From a virus (taxonomy: Duplodnaviria; Caudoviricetes): a DNA stretch of 64,000 nucleotides. The stretch spans positions 1 to 64,000 of the IMG/VR virus record IMGVR_UViG_2706795976_000001. One strand, 5' to 3'. This document shows positions 3,911-47,442 of the stretch, one piece after another. Position 1 is the stretch's first letter; each line of letters opens with the position of its first letter. The translations under genes and the position numbers were made by a program. The notes beneath the pieces were generated by a model. It saw only the letters and a program-made list of their open reading frames with translations. It was not told where the DNA came from and made no database searches.

Positions 3911-4080
3911 AGTCCCTCCAGGAGGCGCTTGAAGATCTCCGTATCGAGACGCTGCAAGCCGACGGCACCTACTCCTTTGACGAGGAAGCCACCGAGAGAA
4001 TGAAGCGGAACGCCCGTGCCAACCCCGAGAAGTACCAGTGGCTTGTTGAGAACGACTGCAGTATCTGGACTGTGTTGTGA
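3877..4080 (+). CDS. Hypothetical protein
   Basis: C-terminal part of ORF 3796..4080; GTGA overlap with the next gene; start uncertain. Confidence 0.45.
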   Translation: MGESEASWDEVKSLQEALEDLRIETLQADGTYSFDEEATERMKRNARANPEKYQWLVENDCSIWTVL

Positions 4081-4859
4081 GGGCCCTAGAGATCGGATCC
4101 TCGGCCGCGAGGTACCGCATCCCAACGTGGCGCGAACCGAAGGACATCGACTACTGGTGTGACGAGGACTTGCCCTCGGGGGTCAAGTCGCTGATCAGGT
4201 TCGATACTTTCTGGCACCCAAGACTGGCGGATCTCCTTGAGGACAACGTGGTTCGCACGGCGACCCTCGACGAGCTCTACACGATCAAGTTCAGCCATGC
4301 CTACTGGGAGCTGCGCAACGGTTCCTGGGAGAAGCACATGGCCGACCTCCTCTCCATGAGAGACCATGGCGCACAACTGATCCCGGAGTGGCATGACCAC
4401 CTGTACAGGGTGTGGGAGGATGTCCACGGCAAGAAGGTGGTCGACCTCACCCAGGAAGCCGAGGAGTTCTTCACCGATGCTGTGAAGCGAATCTATGTAC
4501 ATGATTCGATCCACGACTCTGTGGCATACCATGACCGGCCGATCTACGAGGAATGCCTCAAGGACGGCAAGTCGGTCCAAATGGACATGGAGAAGGTGTG
4601 GGCCATGCCGTTCGAGCGTCAGGTGCAGATGTTCCGCGAGGAGATCTACGTGACAGCCCTTGAGCGGCTTGTGATTCCGAGTGATTACAAGTGCTCACCC
4701 GGCCGCGCATACCGCTGGGCCCTTCGCCGAACCATCACCAGCCTTACCAAGGGGCGGAGTGCAAAGTTCCTTGTCGAGAACTTTGACATCTTCGCCAGAG
4801 CTGATGTAGACTACGTCGGTATCCATTTGGCGAACACCGACAAGTTAGTGAGGTTGTAA
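4077..4859 (+). CDS. Putative nucleotidyltransferase (Pol-beta superfamily-like)
   Basis: N-terminal IGS-x14-DID signature (IGSSAARYRIPTWREPKDIDYW); also HDSIH motif. Confidence 0.6.
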   Translation: MRALEIGSSAARYRIPTWREPKDIDYWCDEDLPSGVKSLIRFDTFWHPRLADLLEDNVVRTATLDELYTIKFSHAYWELRNGSWEKHMADLLSMRDHGAQLIPEWHDHLYRVWEDVHGKKVVDLTQEAEEFFTDAVKRIYVHDSIHDSVAYHDRPIYEECLKDGKSVQMDMEKVWAMPFERQVQMFREEIYVTALERLVIPSDYKCSPGRAYRWALRRTITSLTKGRSAKFLVENFDIFARADVDYVGIHLANTDKLVRL

Positions 4860-5683: not shown

Positions 5684-5713
5684 TTGCACTCCTCCTGGTG
5701 TATCAGGTATACT
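5684..5713 (+). promoter_or_regulatory. SigA-type promoter driving the RNA cluster
   Basis: TTGCAC-N18-TATACT; predicted +1 near 5720, immediately before the first hairpin. Confidence 0.7.
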
Positions 5714-5720
5714 AGGAGGC

Positions 5721-6352
5721 GTGAGAGGGACTACAATCCCATTCCATGGGCCGGTGAAGGCTAGTCCCTCTCACTACAACTGAATAGCCCGTGTGGAACA
5801 TCATCCAACTACAAGTCCGGCATGATGCTCGCGCCACACACGGGCACAATCCTCGACATCAGGCGGCGTCTCGACGGTTTTCGCGAGCCGGGACACGGAG
5901 ACGGTAGGTTCAATTCCTACTCGAGGAGCTCGGGCTATCTGGAAAAGCTGGCTGGGGGGTGTTGTCCGCCCAGCAGCAGTCGACGGACACCAGATAGACC
6001 AGGCGGTGACCGAGTGTGTGTGTACTGGTCTGCACACAAGGTGATCTCGGCGAGTGGTAAGGAGTGCGCCCCTGGCAATGGTGGAGCTCCGAGAAGGTCC
6101 TAGCGGATCGGAAACTCTTGCGGCTTAGCGGCCTAACGAGATGCTCAGCTCGTGAGACGGTGGATCCAAATTGACGATTAGGACCACCACCCCTCATGCC
6201 CTGTCGGAGGACTTATCATCCTCCCCGCCACCTAAAATTGTTGCCGGTCCGTCTCGCCAAGGAGACGGCCACTCCGAGGGGGACCGGTAACTTCAAACGT
6301 AGGCTGACCCCATGTGAAAACCCGCCAGTGCCGTGGGGTCAGCCTACCACCA
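5721..6352 (+). ncRNA. Array of structured non-tRNA RNA modules (or one large ncRNA)
   Basis: No credible ORF. Consecutive long stems: 5721-5774 (13 bp perfect), 5787-5845, 5850-5927, 5936-5997, 6096-6185, 6206-6224, 6240-6291 (11 bp) and 6299-6347 (16 bp), separated by short A/C-rich linkers. Confidence 0.7.
5850..5928 (+). ncRNA. tRNA-like RNA without a canonical D stem or anticodon arm
   Basis: Acceptor stem TCCTCGA/TCGAGGA+G, T arm GTAGG-TTCAATT-CCTAC, long interrupted helix CGTCTC...GAGACG in place of the anticodon arm. Confidence 0.6.
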
Positions 6353-6353
6353 A

Positions 6354-6429
6354 CGGCGTGTAGCTCAGTTAGGTAAGAGCGCCCGGTTGAAACCCGGGAG
6401 GTTCGTAGGTTCGATCCCTACCGCGTCGG
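6354..6429 (+). tRNA. tRNA-Phe(GAA)
   Basis: Cloverleaf; CCCGG-TTGAAAC-CCGGG; T arm GTAGG-TTCGATC-CCTAC. Confidence 0.9.
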
Positions 6430-6432
6430 CAA

Positions 6433-6500
6433 TGTGCCTGGGTTGAAATACTACTCAGGAGGGCCCCGTCGAAAGGGCATGGGTTCGATTCCCAACACAG
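6433..6500 (+). ncRNA. Degenerate tRNA-like element
   Basis: T arm TGGG-TTCGATT-CCCA, closing stem TGTG/CACA, hairpins CCTGGGT/ACTCAGG and GCCC/GGGC; non-canonical geometry. Confidence 0.45.
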
Positions 6501-6540
6501 AGCCCGAAAGGGTGCCAGGACTTCCGGGGTTCTGGTCCAT

Positions 6541-6615
6541 TCCGGAGTAGCTTAATTGGCAGAGCTCCAGGTTGTTACCCTGATGTAGATATAGGTTCAA
6601 GTCCTATCTCCGGAG
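6541..6615 (+). tRNA. tRNA-Asn(GTT)
   Basis: Acceptor TCCGGAG/CTCCGGA, anticodon loop TTGTTAC, T arm ATAGG-TTCAAGT-CCTAT. Confidence 0.9.
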
Positions 6616-6628
6616 CGCAGTACAACAA

Positions 6629-6700
6629 TAGGATCTAGCTCAACTGGTAGAGCGGTGGTCTCCAAAGCCACTGGTAGGGGTTCAAGTCCTCTGGTCCTAG
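6629..6700 (+). tRNA. tRNA-Trp(CCA)
   Basis: GTGGT-CTCCAAA-GCCAC; canonical D and T arms. Confidence 0.9.
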
Positions 6701-6703
6701 CAT

Positions 6704-6777
6704 GCTTCCGTAGCTCAGCGGTTTAGAGCAGCTGATTCTTAATCAGCGGGTCGAAGGTTCAAATCCTTCCGGGGGCA
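6704..6777 (+). tRNA. tRNA-Lys(CTT)
   Basis: GCTGA-TTCTTAA-TCAGC; T arm GAAGG-TTCAAAT-CCTTC. Confidence 0.92.
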
Positions 6778-6822
6778 CGATGTTCGGCCAGCGCATCCCA
6801 CCACCACTGGCCGAGCACACAA

Positions 6823-6895
6823 CCTTCCGTAGCTTAGTGGTTAAAGCACTCGCCTGTCGAGCGAGGGGACGCGCGTTCGAATTGCGTCGGAGGGA
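6823..6895 (+). tRNA. tRNA-Asp(GTC)
   Basis: CTCGC-CTGTCGA-GCGAG; acceptor CCTTCCG/CGGAGGG. Confidence 0.85.
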
Positions 6896-7053
6896 CGAGC
6901 AGGTTCGCCACCGAACTACCTGCCTAAACAAAACCAGCCGTGTGCGCGCGCACTATGCAAGGGGGAAGCCCCGCTGGCACTCGAGTTCGTCGGGACATTG
7001 CCTGAGCTAGCTACTCAGCCGACCACCGGGCTCTCGAGTGAAGGGTGGCTCCA

Positions 7054-7132
7054 TCGGGTGACCTCATGGCGAGGACTCTGGCTGTAACCCAGACGCGTTT
7101 ACGCACAGGGAGTTCGATTCTCTCCGCCCGAA
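7054..7132 (+). tRNA. tRNA-Tyr(GTA)
   Basis: TCTGG-CTGTAAC-CCAGA, variable hairpin GCG-TTTA-CGC, T arm GGGAG-TTCGATT-CTCTC; compact D arm. Confidence 0.8.
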
Positions 7133-7224
7133 CAAACCCCGGAGGCAAGTGACAGCCTCTTCTGCCTCTGCAGATCTGATCGAATCTGTATGCGGACACA
7201 GAACCTAGGCTGTGGGGGCTTTTT

Positions 7225-7310
7225 GGAGAGTATGCCCACGGTGGGCGCGCGGTGTCGAATACCGCTATACGGTAAACATTCCGGGGGTTCAACTCCTCTG
7301 CTCTCCGCCA
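7225..7310 (+). tRNA. tRNA-Ser(CGA), CCA encoded
   Basis: Acceptor GGAGAGT/GCTCTCC + G + CCA, GCGGT-GTCGAAT-ACCGC, long variable arm. Confidence 0.8.
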
Positions 7311-7311
7311 A

Positions 7312-7394
7312 GGCGAGATATCCAGACTGGGTCTGGTCCCCGTTGCTAGCGGGAGGGCACCTACGGGTGTGGGATTCGATTTCTCATCTCGCCG
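7312..7394 (+). tRNA. tRNA-Ser(GCT)
   Basis: Acceptor GGCGAGA/TCTCGCC + G, anticodon loop TTGCTAG, variable arm GCACC-TACG-GGTGT. Confidence 0.8.
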
Positions 7395-7395
7395 C

Positions 7396-46218: not shown

Positions 46219-47442
46219 ATGCCCGAGATGATTGCCCCCGGAGTACTGAACTATGCATCAGTTCTCGACGAGACCACGCGCAAGCAGGCCGAGGAGATCG
46301 CCAGTCTGCCATTCATCTACCCCCACGTTGCGCTGATGCCAGATGCTCACGCAGGCAAGGGGTCTGCCGTGGGCACGGTGATCCCCACCAAGGACGCCGT
46401 CATCCCAGCGGCCGTGGGTGTCGACATCGGTTGCGGGATGATCGGCGTGGAGACCTGGGTCCAGAAGTCCGACATCGCCGGGATGGACCTAGCCCTCCTC
46501 CGTGAGTGCATCGAGAAGGAGATTCCACTCTCCCCCGGAAACTACAACAAGAACCCACGTTGGGCACCGCATACCACGGAACGTATCGAGTTGCTCGAGA
46601 GGCTCGCCGAGGACACAGGTGTGGACCTCTCACATTCGCCGAAGTGGCGGGAACAGCTCGGGTCGCTCGGCGGCGGCAACCACTTCATCGAGCTGTGCCA
46701 GTCGGTGATTGCGGAATACGACGACGGTGAGCTGTGGCTGTTCCTCCATTCGGGTTCGCGTGGTGTCGGCAACAAGATCGCCCAGAAGCACATCAAGATC
46801 GCCCAGAAGCTGTGCAAGCGATGGCATGTCCCGCTGGCGAATCCTGACCTGGCCTACCTACCCTCCGGCACGCAGGAATTCACCACCTACCTACGAGAGC
46901 TGCGGTGGGCCCAGCGATTCGCACTCGAGAACCGCGCCGAGATGATGGATCGGTTCGTCGCGGTTTTCCAGTGGTGGCTCGAGGATCAGGGGTACGACTT
47001 CCATAACGACGAGATGCCTGATGAGGTCGAGGTCCGGCGCATCAACTGCCACCACAACTACACCGAGAACGTCACGATCAACGGCGAGAGGGTGTGGCTG
47101 ACGCGCAAGGGTGCGATCGACGCCAGCGAGGGCAAGTACGGACTCATCCCCGGCTCCATGGGCACCAAGTCGTACGTCGTTGTGGGGCAGGGGAATTCGT
47201 CTGGCCTATACTCGGCACCACATGGGGCTGGCCGGAACTTCTCTCGCACCGAGGCTCGCAAGCGGTTCACTGCGGACGACCTCGCGAAGGCCATGGAGGG
47301 CATCGAGTACCGCCACGGTGAGGAGTGGATCGACGAGATCCCCGCAGCGTACAAGGACATCGACCAGGTCATCGAGGACGCGAAAGACCTTGTGACAGTG
47401 GAGACCACGCTCAAGCAGCTGGTAAACATCAAAGGGGTGTAG
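46219..47442 (+). CDS. rtcB: RtcB RNA ligase
   Basis: MPDAHAGKG, VGVDIGCG, LGSLGGGNHFIE, HSGSRGVG, HHNY, TRKGA, PGSMG, SAPHGAGR, DEIPAAYKDI. Confidence 0.97.
   Translation: MPEMIAPGVLNYASVLDETTRKQAEEIASLPFIYPHVALMPDAHAGKGSAVGTVIPTKDAVIPAAVGVDIGCGMIGVETWVQKSDIAGMDLALLRECIEKEIPLSPGNYNKNPRWAPHTTERIELLERLAEDTGVDLSHSPKWREQLGSLGGGNHFIELCQSVIAEYDDGELWLFLHSGSRGVGNKIAQKHIKIAQKLCKRWHVPLANPDLAYLPSGTQEFTTYLRELRWAQRFALENRAEMMDRFVAVFQWWLEDQGYDFHNDEMPDEVEVRRINCHHNYTENVTINGERVWLTRKGAIDASEGKYGLIPGSMGTKSYVVVGQGNSSGLYSAPHGAGRNFSRTEARKRFTADDLAKAMEGIEYRHGEEWIDEIPAAYKDIDQVIEDAKDLVTVETTLKQLVNIKGV

What the first reader, a model, noticed from the sequence alone, without database searches (positions are those of the whole stretch)
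5850..5928. tRNA mimic with intact acceptor and T arm but no D stem or anticodon
Seen: a 7-bp acceptor stem (TCCTCGA/TCGAGGA, discriminator G), a perfect T arm (GTAGG-TTCAATT-CCTAC), an unpaired GG-containing D-loop-like segment (CATCAGGCGG), and a long interrupted helix (CGTCTC..CGGTTT-TCGC-GAGCCG..GAGACG) replacing the anticodon arm. Established: this topology resembles the tRNA-like domain of tmRNA and the tRNA-like module of bacterial Y RNAs. It has no G3:U70 alanine determinant and no tag ORF, so it is not tmRNA. Inference: an elbow/acceptor mimic that cannot decode, acting as a decoy, a processing signal or a Y-RNA relative. RtcB, often linked to Ro60/Y RNA, is in this genome, but no Ro60 is in the window.
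Basis: partly seen in the sequence, partly recalled or inferred. Interest (0 to 1): 0.72.

Follow-up and report, generated by a model that had tools for sequence, protein, structure and literature searches.

The report
Non-decoding tRNA-Asn-derived mimic in phage
A phage related to Gordonia phages keeps, as the first gene of its tRNA operon, a small RNA with the amino-acid-accepting half of an asparagine tRNA and a closed rod where the codon-reading arm should be, so it cannot read codons and its job is untested.

Summary
Window 5850-5928 folds as described: a perfect 7-bp acceptor stem, a canonical T arm stacked on it, a 10-nt unpaired GG-containing segment and no D stem. A 6+6-bp interrupted helix capped by a tetraloop replaces the anticodon arm. 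ARAGORN and the Rfam tRNA, tmRNA and YrlA models do not call it.

It is not chance and not a decaying pseudogene. This top-half signature occurs only in the tRNA array (0.025 expected per shuffled window). An orthologue sits at the same place in 17 Gordonia Smoothievirus phages, annotated 'tRNA-OTHER/Undet'. That orthologue has the same acceptor stem with one compensated pair, and its anticodon loop is also closed.

The acceptor (U1:A72, C2, C3, U4, C5, G73) is that of tRNA-Asn. The family therefore derives from a phage tRNA-Asn, not from tmRNA or a Y RNA.

The window copy alone lost the D stem and gained a rod. Its topology and a GG...UCUCGAC/hairpin/GGAC core resemble the tmRNA tRNA-like domain. 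It lacks G3:U70 and A73, and a DS6A-type 'TLD-only' model does not separate it from true tRNAs.

The phage has no Ro60 and no SmpB gene. The function is inferred: most likely a tRNA-processed, uncharged top-half decoy, with a cis processing signal as the main rival.

This scan has already noted anticodon-less phage tRNA mimics, those shown being mostly alanine-type, in 40 or more other genomes.

The parts
5684..5713 (+). Putative promoter of the RNA operon: TTGCAC (5684-5689), 18-nt spacer, TATACT (5708-5713)
   Evidence: Read from the sequence. It was not flagged by the strict consensus scan. No terminator-like site lies on the + strand between here and 7197. Inferred, not shown.
5850..5856 (+). 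Acceptor stem, 5' strand TCCTCGA (U1 C2 C3 U4 C5 G6 A7)
   Evidence: Identical at 6 of 7 positions to the Smoothie orthologue, and the seventh pair is compensated (A:U versus G:C). This is the tRNA-Asn-type acceptor.
5857..5866 (+). Unpaired D-loop remnant CATCAGGCGG, with GG doublets at 5862-5863 and 5865-5866 in the region where the orthologue's D loop carries its GG
   Evidence: Unpaired in the MFE fold. It aligns to the D loop and 3' D-stem strand (CAATAGGCAG) of the Smoothie orthologue. The 5' D-stem strand is missing.
5867..5903 (+). Interrupted rod replacing the anticodon arm. Outer helix CGTCTC/GAGACG. Internal loop GA / GGACACG. Inner helix CGGTTT/GAGCCG. Tetraloop TCGC (5881-5884). 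Contains the motifs TCTCGAC (5869-5875) and GGAC (5891-5894).
   Evidence: MFE fold; opening the outer helix costs about 6 kcal/mol. The tip TCGCGAG is shared with the variable-arm hairpin of the Smoothie orthologue. The tmRNA-like motif was tested.
5904..5920 (+). T arm: GTAGG, TTCAATT, CCTAC, with a canonical T loop
5921..5928 (+). Acceptor stem 3' strand TCGAGGA plus discriminator G73. No encoded CCA; CTC follows.

Best explanation
The element is a real, selectively maintained gene for a non-decoding tRNA-like RNA that derives from a phage tRNA-Asn.

It is the first RNA of the phage's long tRNA and small-RNA operon. It keeps what tRNA-maturation enzymes read: a 7-bp acceptor stem stacked on a canonical T arm, with a GG-containing loop opposite the T loop. 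RNase P should therefore cut at its 5' end, RNase Z or exonucleases at its 3' end, and the CCA-adding enzyme should finish it (inferred).

It has no anticodon loop, so it cannot be read on a codon. The anticodon-dependent Asp/Asn synthetases should not charge it (inferred). It also lacks the alanine mark.

The most likely role is a stable, uncharged 'top-half' tRNA decoy acting in trans. It would occupy a host factor that reads the acceptor, T arm and elbow without disturbing translation. The most specific candidate is SmpB and trans-translation, because this copy has been remodelled into a tmRNA-TLD-like shape and core. Alternatives are host toxins that modify uncharged tRNA 3' ends.

What is shown: the structure, its conservation, its tRNA-Asn ancestry and the loss of decoding. 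What is inferred: processing, stability and the target.
For: Structure and non-randomness.

Orthologue: it sits at the same position, first after the promoter, in 17 Gordonia Smoothievirus genomes and is annotated tRNA-OTHER/Undet. It shares the acceptor stem with one compensated pair and has a canonical T loop. Its anticodon arm folds as a 7-bp stem with a GACG tetraloop. Decoding was therefore lost before the two lineages split, and the gene was kept afterwards.

Divergence: 70% identity between window and Smoothie copies, inside the 70-87% range of six orthologous true tRNAs.

Family: together with a paralogous type-B mimic in Smoothie, WilliamBoone and BrutonGaster, 3 of 7 acceptor pairs show two-sided changes and 94% of cells are paired.

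tRNA-Asn ancestry: 90 of 119 IMG/VR matches to the acceptor plus T-loop pattern are tRNA-Asn(GUU). The first 27 nt of the Smoothie orthologue match a phage tRNA-Asn at 24 of 27.

Independence from neighbours: phage Miskis has the type-A gene without the 230-nt RNA that follows it here. It is therefore not merely a handle for that RNA.

Window-specific rod: its 3' strand lies in a stretch about 5 nt longer than in the orthologue. This points to selection for a compact body rather than decay.

tmRNA-like core: all 31 actinobacterial tmRNAs examined have GGT[C/T/A]TCGAC after the acceptor and GGAC before the T stem, flanking a covarying P2a helix. The element has CAGG..TCTCGAC, a hairpin, then GGAC, a combination seen in 26 of 200,000 composition shuffles.

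Precedent: a TLD-only molecule, chargeable or not, strongly inhibits tmRNA in E. coli, perhaps by titrating SmpB (Mao et al. 2009, as cited in PMC4131195).
Against: Only two independent lineages carry this type, so the rod helix has no covariation support.

Fold energy is not better than shuffles (z = -1.1).

Against the SmpB reading in particular. The orthologue has a full D arm and lacks the TCGAC/GGAC core. The window's GAC aligns with the orthologue's former anticodon-loop GAC, so few substitutions could create the motif by chance. GGAC lies 9 nt from the T stem, not directly against it as in tmRNA. GTCTC is base-paired in the MFE fold. The TLD-only covariance model scores the element at 18.9 bits against 14-17 bits for true tRNAs of the same window, so it does not separate them.

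A catalytic toxin is not easily neutralised by a stoichiometric decoy.
Confidence: 0.4

Rival explanations
1. It is a cis-acting processing or punctuation element. The tRNA-like top half only recruits RNase P and RNase Z to the head of the polycistronic transcript. This defines the ends of the downstream hairpins, the 230-nt structured RNA and the tRNAs, or protects the 5' end. The excised RNA itself has no role.
For: It is the first element after the promoter in every phage that has it. No terminator-like site lies within the array. Only the parts needed by processing enzymes are conserved, while the body differs strongly between the two lineages. In Smoothie the 230-nt RNA is bracketed by two such mimics.
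Against: A true tRNA would do the same job and also decode, so the long retention of a non-decoding copy is unexplained. Miskis keeps it without the 230-nt RNA. A new, perfectly paired 6-bp helix evolved in the body, which a pure cleavage signal does not need.
Confidence: 0.27
2. It is a decaying tRNA-Asn pseudogene with no function, kept only because it lies between functional elements.
For: It derives from tRNA-Asn. The D stem is lost and the anticodon loop is destroyed. The phage has a working tRNA-Asn(GUU) at 6541-6616. Fold energy is unremarkable.
Against: The acceptor stem is perfect in both lineages, with a compensated change. The T loop is canonical. Divergence is no greater than for true tRNAs. 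The gene is identical in 17 related genomes. The window copy gained a new 6-bp helix. Phage genomes usually purge dead DNA (established knowledge, not tested here).
Confidence: 0.1
3. It is a true member of the DS6A-type 'TLD-only' tmRNA family, descended from tmRNA.
For: It has the same topology. The covariance model built from DS6A and three bacterial copies aligns the whole element (18.9 bits; E = 8e-5 on the 221-nt stretch searched, and E = 0.028 on the 75-kb set searched). The TCTCGAC and GGAC motifs match the actinobacterial tmRNA consensus.
Against: It has no G3:U70 and no A73. It lacks the CCGCACGCGG hairpin that is invariant in DS6A and the three bacterial copies. Rfam tmRNA gives nothing at E<=10, while DS6A scores 43 bits and the bacterial copies 50-60 bits. 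The acceptor stem is of tRNA-Asn type, and the orthologue has a tRNA D arm.
Confidence: 0.05
4. It is a bacterial Y-RNA (YrlA) relative working with Ro60 and RtcB.
For: RtcB is encoded at 46285-47436. YrlA also carries a tRNA-like module (background knowledge).
Against: The complete phage record has no TROVE/Ro60 gene. The YrlA model gives only weak hits on true tRNAs and none on the element. The element has a free acceptor end where YrlA has a Ro-binding stem.
Confidence: 0.02

Closest known systems
'tRNA-OTHER / tRNA Undet' genes of Gordonia Smoothievirus phages (for example Smoothie gene 20, NC_030696 5868-5955)
   Same: Positional orthologue: first RNA after the operon promoter. Same acceptor stem (6 of 7 pairs identical, the seventh compensated), same discriminator G, canonical T loop, shared TCGCGAG hairpin tip, and no usable anticodon loop.
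   Different: The Gordonia-phage copy keeps a normal D arm, a 7-bp tetraloop-capped 'anticodon' stem and a separate variable-arm hairpin (88 nt). The window copy (79 nt) has no D stem and a single long interrupted rod.
'TLD only' (CDS-less) tmRNA of mycobacteriophage DS6A (JN698994 28478-28560; PMC4131195, PMC11915505; Mao et al. 2009)
   Same: A phage of an actinobacterial host. Acceptor stem plus T arm, an unpaired D-loop analogue without a D stem, one closed helix in place of the anticodon arm, no message. A UCGAC...GGAC-type core is present.
   Different: DS6A has G3:U70 and A73 (alanine identity), GAC/CAC directly against the T stem, and a CCGCACGCGG hairpin shared with bacterial copies. 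It stands alone between protein genes. The window element has a tRNA-Asn acceptor, G73 and a displaced core, sits in a tRNA operon and descends from a tRNA.
Phage tRNA-Asn(GUU), including forms with an extra variable-arm hairpin
   Same: The acceptor stem UCCUCG/CGAGGA with G73 is the signature of these genes: 90 of 119 pattern matches. Some carry a GNRA-capped variable-arm hairpin like that of the Smoothie orthologue.
   Different: There is no GUU anticodon and no 7-nt loop. In the window copy there is also no D stem.
Phage T4 stable RNAs C and D (species 1 and 2) from the tRNA gene cluster
   Same: Small, stable, non-decoding RNAs co-transcribed and processed with phage tRNAs, of unknown function. 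This is from my own knowledge; it was also named as closest known by an earlier follow-up on this window.
   Different: No sequence or structural comparison was made here.

Membership tests
Canonical tRNA | Cloverleaf with a D stem | tested here: not met
   No D stem in the MFE fold or in the family alignment. The four relatives have GCTC/GAGC; the window copy does not.
Canonical tRNA | 5-bp anticodon stem with a 7-nt loop, and a call by tRNA detectors | tested here: not met
   The loop is a TCGC tetraloop on a 6+6-bp rod. ARAGORN at default makes no call. Rfam RF00005 gives no match at E<=10.
Canonical tRNA | 7-bp acceptor stem stacked on a 5-bp T stem with a T54-T55-C56-R57-A58 loop | tested here: met
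tRNA-Asn lineage (descent, not function) | Acceptor U1:A72, C2:G71, C3:G70, U4:A69, C5:G68 with G73 | tested here: met
   90 of 119 IMG/VR matches to this acceptor plus T-loop pattern are tRNA-Asn(GUU).
tRNA-Asn lineage (descent, not function) | GUU anticodon | tested here: not met
   No anticodon loop.
tmRNA | G3:U70 and A73 (alanine identity) | tested here: not met
   C3:G70 and G73. All 31 actinobacterial tmRNAs examined start GGGG and end CTCCA.
tmRNA | Tag reading frame and pseudoknots between the two halves of the tRNA-like domain; match to the Rfam tmRNA model | tested here: not met
   The two halves are joined by a 37-nt rod. RF00023 gives no match at E<=10 in the whole phage. A tag-like NSCGLAA* in the downstream 230-nt RNA is better explained by two paired hairpins.
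DS6A-type TLD-only tmRNA | Unpaired D-loop analogue, single closed helix, T arm | tested here: met
   (full-length alignment to model R1).
DS6A-type TLD-only tmRNA | GG..TCGAC, then the P2a helix, then G(G/C)AC directly before the T stem | tested here: inconclusive
   The motifs are present (26 of 200,000 shuffles). However, GGAC lies 9 nt from the T stem and GTCTC is paired in the MFE fold.
DS6A-type TLD-only tmRNA | Conserved CCGCACGCGG hairpin, and a family model score clearly above that of tRNAs | tested here: not met
   The hairpin is absent. R1 scores the element at 18.9 bits against 14-17 bits for true tRNAs.
YrlA / bacterial Y RNA | Ro60 (TROVE) partner gene in the genome | tested here: not met
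   PF05731 has no match in the complete 98-kb record; the controls were found.
YrlA / bacterial Y RNA | Match to the Rfam YrlA model and a Ro-binding terminal stem | tested here: not met
   RF02553 hits only true tRNAs weakly. The element ends in a free acceptor stem.
Smoothievirus 'type A' tRNA-like gene | Same operon position, shared acceptor stem and discriminator, shared internal blocks, closed anticodon arm | tested here: met

The most novel reading that the evidence does not exclude
A tRNA-Asn gene was converted, in this phage lineage, into a non-chargeable look-alike of the host's tmRNA tRNA-like domain. It lost the D stem and acquired the actinobacterial UCUCGAC/GGAC core. It now traps SmpB and shuts down host ribosome rescue during infection. 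This would be a second, convergent route to the 'TLD-only' inhibitor known from phage DS6A.
Probability: 0.1. Interest if true: 0.75.

Novelty: new variant of a known kind. Interest (0 to 1): 0.45.

Why it matters
Anticodon-less tRNA mimics are turning up in many phages, yet only one (DS6A) is in the literature and none has a proven role. This one shows that such mimics need not carry alanine identity and can arise from an ordinary tRNA-Asn. It also has culturable relatives (Gordonia phages on G. terrae 3612) whose annotated 'tRNA-OTHER' genes could be deleted and assayed. That makes the question of what these RNAs do directly testable in a laboratory system.

Tried and rejected
1. Split or tandem tmRNA. 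The element would be the tRNA-like domain and the downstream conserved 230-nt RNA the message domain. I noticed a tag-like AAC TCT TGC GGC TTA GCG GCC TAA (NSCGLAA*) with apparently synonymous changes. These bases lie in two similar YUAGCGG hairpins, and the 'synonymous' changes turn G:U pairs into G:C pairs. Neither ARAGORN nor Rfam finds a tmRNA, and the phage has no SmpB gene. Rejected.

2. Strand exchange between the CGTCTC/GAGACG stem and an identical stem at 6249-6272. The second stem is not conserved in Smoothie. Dropped.

3. More homologues.
   - A protein-anchored search in IMG/VR found none.
   - Relatives of the upstream protein have no tRNA array downstream.
   - The single metagenome scan and the single genome scan, with a 19-nt core of the 230-nt RNA, gave only chance matches.
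   - blastn of the element alone found only T-arm fragments.

5. Serine charging (G73 with a long arm): unlikely. The acceptor starts U1, C2, whereas the phage's own tRNA-Ser genes start G1, G2. Not tested further.

6. K-turn in the internal loop: no fitting register by inspection.

7. Pfam and PHROGs on the three upstream genes: only DUF7275/DUF7277 and unnamed phrogs.

8. Context of the two Pseudonocardia TLD-only genes: no Pfam hits on flanking ORFs.

Full report
WHAT IS THERE

The window is the first 64 kb of a complete 98,136-bp IMG/VR phage record. Its nearest named relatives are Gordonia terrae phages of the genus Smoothievirus, at 77-80% nucleotide identity in neighbouring genes.

It has a perfect 7-bp acceptor stem (TCCTCGA/TCGAGGA) with discriminator G. 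A T arm (GTAGG-TTCAATT-CCTAC) is stacked directly on it. Ten bases (CATCAGGCGG) are unpaired. A rod made of a 6-bp outer helix, an asymmetric internal loop and a 6-bp inner helix is capped by TCGC.

RNAfold returns this as both MFE and centroid. The energy is not better than shuffles (z = -1.1), so the case rests on the tRNA-specific architecture, not on stability.

That architecture is specific. A search for a 7-bp acceptor stem abutting a 5-bp T stem with a TTCRANN loop finds only this element and true tRNAs of the array in 64 kb on both strands. The expectation is 0.025 per shuffled window.

ARAGORN at default settings and the Rfam tRNA, tmRNA and YrlA models do not call it.

CONTEXT

The element lies about 130 nt downstream of a promoter-like TTGCAC-N18-TATACT (5684-5713). 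It sits at the head of an array without terminator-like sites. The array holds several hairpins, a conserved structured RNA of about 230 nt (6002-6231), tRNA-Phe, Asn, Trp, Lys and Asp, a Tyr that default ARAGORN misses, and two Ser.

HOMOLOGUES

In Gordonia phage Smoothie and 16 near-identical relatives, the first gene after the equivalent promoter is an 88-nt 'tRNA-OTHER / tRNA Undet'.

It shares the acceptor stem with the window element: 6 of 7 pairs are identical, the seventh changes A:U to G:C on both sides, and the discriminator G and the next base are the same. It has a canonical T loop. It also shares internal blocks: GACG, TTT(A)TCGCGAG and CGG(G/A)A. I call this type A.

The Smoothie copy has a normal D arm. 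Its 'anticodon arm' folds as a 7-bp stem with a GACG tetraloop, followed by a variable-arm hairpin. It cannot decode either, so decoding was lost before the two lineages separated.

A paralogous type B mimic has the same 5' half, a short palindromic hairpin instead of an anticodon arm, and the T arm GTGGGTTCRAATCCCAC. It sits just before tRNA-Trp in Smoothie, WilliamBoone, Miskis and BrutonGaster, and is variously annotated Undet, tRNA-Ala or tRNA-Leu.

Across the five distinct family members, the acceptor helix has 3 of 7 pairs with changes on both sides and 94% of cells paired. The D stem is present in four members and absent only in the window copy.

IS IT DECAY?

Six true tRNAs shared by the window phage and Smoothie are 70-87% identical. 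The tRNA-like gene is 70% identical, with the best-kept acceptor stem of the set.

The window copy is 8-9 nt shorter in the D region, having lost the 5' D-stem strand. It is about 5 nt longer just before the T arm, and that extra stretch supplies the 3' strand of the new, perfectly paired outer helix.

Loss of one helix together with the building of another, with the acceptor stem, T loop and a GG-containing loop kept, fits remodelling under selection better than decay. The limitation is that only two independent lineages carry type A, so the rod itself has no covariation support.

ANCESTRY

The acceptor stem explains the missing G3:U70. U1:A72, C2, C3, U4, C5 with G73 is the tRNA-Asn acceptor.

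Of these, 90 are tRNA-Asn(GUU). Most of the others are tRNA-Arg genes matched one base out of register.

The first 27 nt of the Smoothie type A gene match a phage tRNA-Asn at 24 of 27. Some phage tRNA-Asn genes carry a GNRA-capped variable-arm hairpin like that of type A.

The family therefore descends from a tRNA-Asn, not from tmRNA or a Y RNA.

THE tmRNA RESEMBLANCE

The literature holds a direct precedent. Mycobacteriophage DS6A has a 'TLD only' tmRNA gene. [quoted passage not shown] 2009; PMC11915505).

I located the DS6A gene. I also found three further 81-83-nt copies in two actinobacterial genomes. All have G3:U70, A73, GG..TCGAC, an invariant CCGCACGCGG hairpin, and G(G/C)AC against the T stem.

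In 31 actinobacterial tmRNAs, the motif GGT[C/T/A]TCGAC after the acceptor stem and GGAC before the T stem are invariant. They flank a covarying P2a helix.

The window element contains CAGG..(5 nt)..TCTCGAC, then a 5-6-bp hairpin, then GGAC. Only 26 of 200,000 composition-matched shuffles of its interior show such a combination.

Five points weigh against membership or descent:
- There is no alanine identity.
- The shared DS6A hairpin is absent.
- GGAC lies 9 nt from the T stem, and GTCTC is paired in the MFE fold.
- A covariance model of the TLD-only genes scores the element at 18.9 bits. That is the best hit in the window, but it is barely above true tRNAs at 14-17 bits.
- The Smoothie orthologue lacks the core. 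The window's GAC aligns with that orthologue's former anticodon-loop GAC, so few substitutions would create the motif.

I treat the resemblance as real at the level of shape. It may be convergent or coincidental at the level of sequence.

OTHER READINGS

The Y-RNA idea fails. The phage has no Ro60/TROVE gene, the YrlA model does not match the element, and the element has a free acceptor end. RtcB is present at 46285-47436, but that alone links nothing.

The idea that the element and the downstream 230-nt RNA form a split tmRNA was examined and rejected. The details are under Tried and rejected.

A pure role as a processing handle for the 230-nt RNA is weakened by phage Miskis. It keeps type A directly followed by type B, with no 230-nt RNA.

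MECHANISM

Shown: a conserved, non-decoding, tRNA-Asn-derived RNA gene with an intact acceptor/T-arm top half, in promoter-proximal position.

Inferred: it is matured by RNase P, a 3' nuclease and the CCA-adding enzyme. It is not aminoacylated, because Asp/Asn enzymes need the anticodon and the alanine mark is absent. It acts as an uncharged top-half decoy.

I give this trans-acting decoy reading 0.4. Within it, SmpB titration accounts for about 0.1. Another candidate target is the host toxins that modify uncharged tRNA 3' ends.

The rivals are a purely cis processing or punctuation role (about 0.27), decay (about 0.1), true TLD-only membership (about 0.05) and a Y-RNA relative (about 0.02).

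PRIOR NOTES OF THIS SCAN

A word search returned 43 earlier findings in at least 40 other genomes. The eight shown are anticodon-less phage tRNA mimics, mostly alanine-type, usually with DS6A as the closest known. An earlier follow-up on this window independently described the unnamed 230-nt conserved RNA.

The present element differs in having a tRNA-Asn acceptor and no alanine identity.

No claim here rests on the unpublished genome G009. Its tmRNA locus was left out of the tally.

Noticed in passing
window 6002-6231: A conserved structured RNA of about 230 nt with no Rfam match. It is 84.6% identical to a stretch in the Smoothievirus records matched (16 rows, several of them two accessions of the same phage). 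It is closed by GGCGG/CCGCC. RNAalifold predicts 73 pairs, 12 of them with compensatory changes. It contains two similar YUAGCGG hairpins. It is absent from Miskis, WilliamBoone and BrutonGaster. An earlier follow-up on this window noted it too.
   Followed up: partly
L043:1501-1583, L045:1501-1583 (a Pseudonocardia genome) and L084:101-181 minus strand (another actinobacterial genome): Three chromosomal 81-83-nt 'TLD-only' tmRNA-like genes with G3:U70 and A73. They share an invariant CCGCACGCGG hairpin with the phage DS6A gene and score 50-60 bits on Rfam tmRNA. Found in 2 of 121 genomes sampled. The DS6A-type gene is therefore not confined to that phage. Flanking ORFs gave no Pfam hits.
   Followed up: partly
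window 7054-7132: A tRNA-Tyr(GTA)-like gene that default ARAGORN and the Rfam gathering threshold miss. It is called only at lowered thresholds and scores 20 bits as tRNA-Sec.
   Followed up: no
L087:630-718 (Gordonia phage Miskis, PV251871 6205-6293): An annotated 'tRNA-OTHER (cgtg)': a long-variable-arm tRNA with an 8-nt anticodon loop on a GGAGG/CCTCC stem. It could be a four-base decoder.
   Followed up: no
window tRNA array, 6354-7395: Several of this phage's true tRNAs start with U or C instead of G (Asn TCCGGAG, Trp TAGGATC, Asp CCTTCCG, Tyr TCGGGTG, Phe CGGCGTG). Most lack an encoded CCA.
   Followed up: no
L014 (Logan contig SRR17386211_1364734): A distant relative of the gene upstream of the array (DUF7275) sits in a phage tRNA-repair cluster with an RNA ligase, a PNKP-like kinase/phosphatase, PTH2, RlaP and a CCA-adding enzyme. 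This suggests the DUF7275 gene at window 4077-4859 is RNA-related.
   Followed up: no
L001:2340-2365, L005:290-315, L006:1238-1260: A conserved inverted repeat, TGTCTA-N9-TAGACA, overlaps the -10 region (TACAAT) of the tRNA-operon promoter in the Gordonia phages. It looks like an operator. The window phage has a different repeat (CCTCCT..AGGAGG) at its promoter.
   Followed up: no
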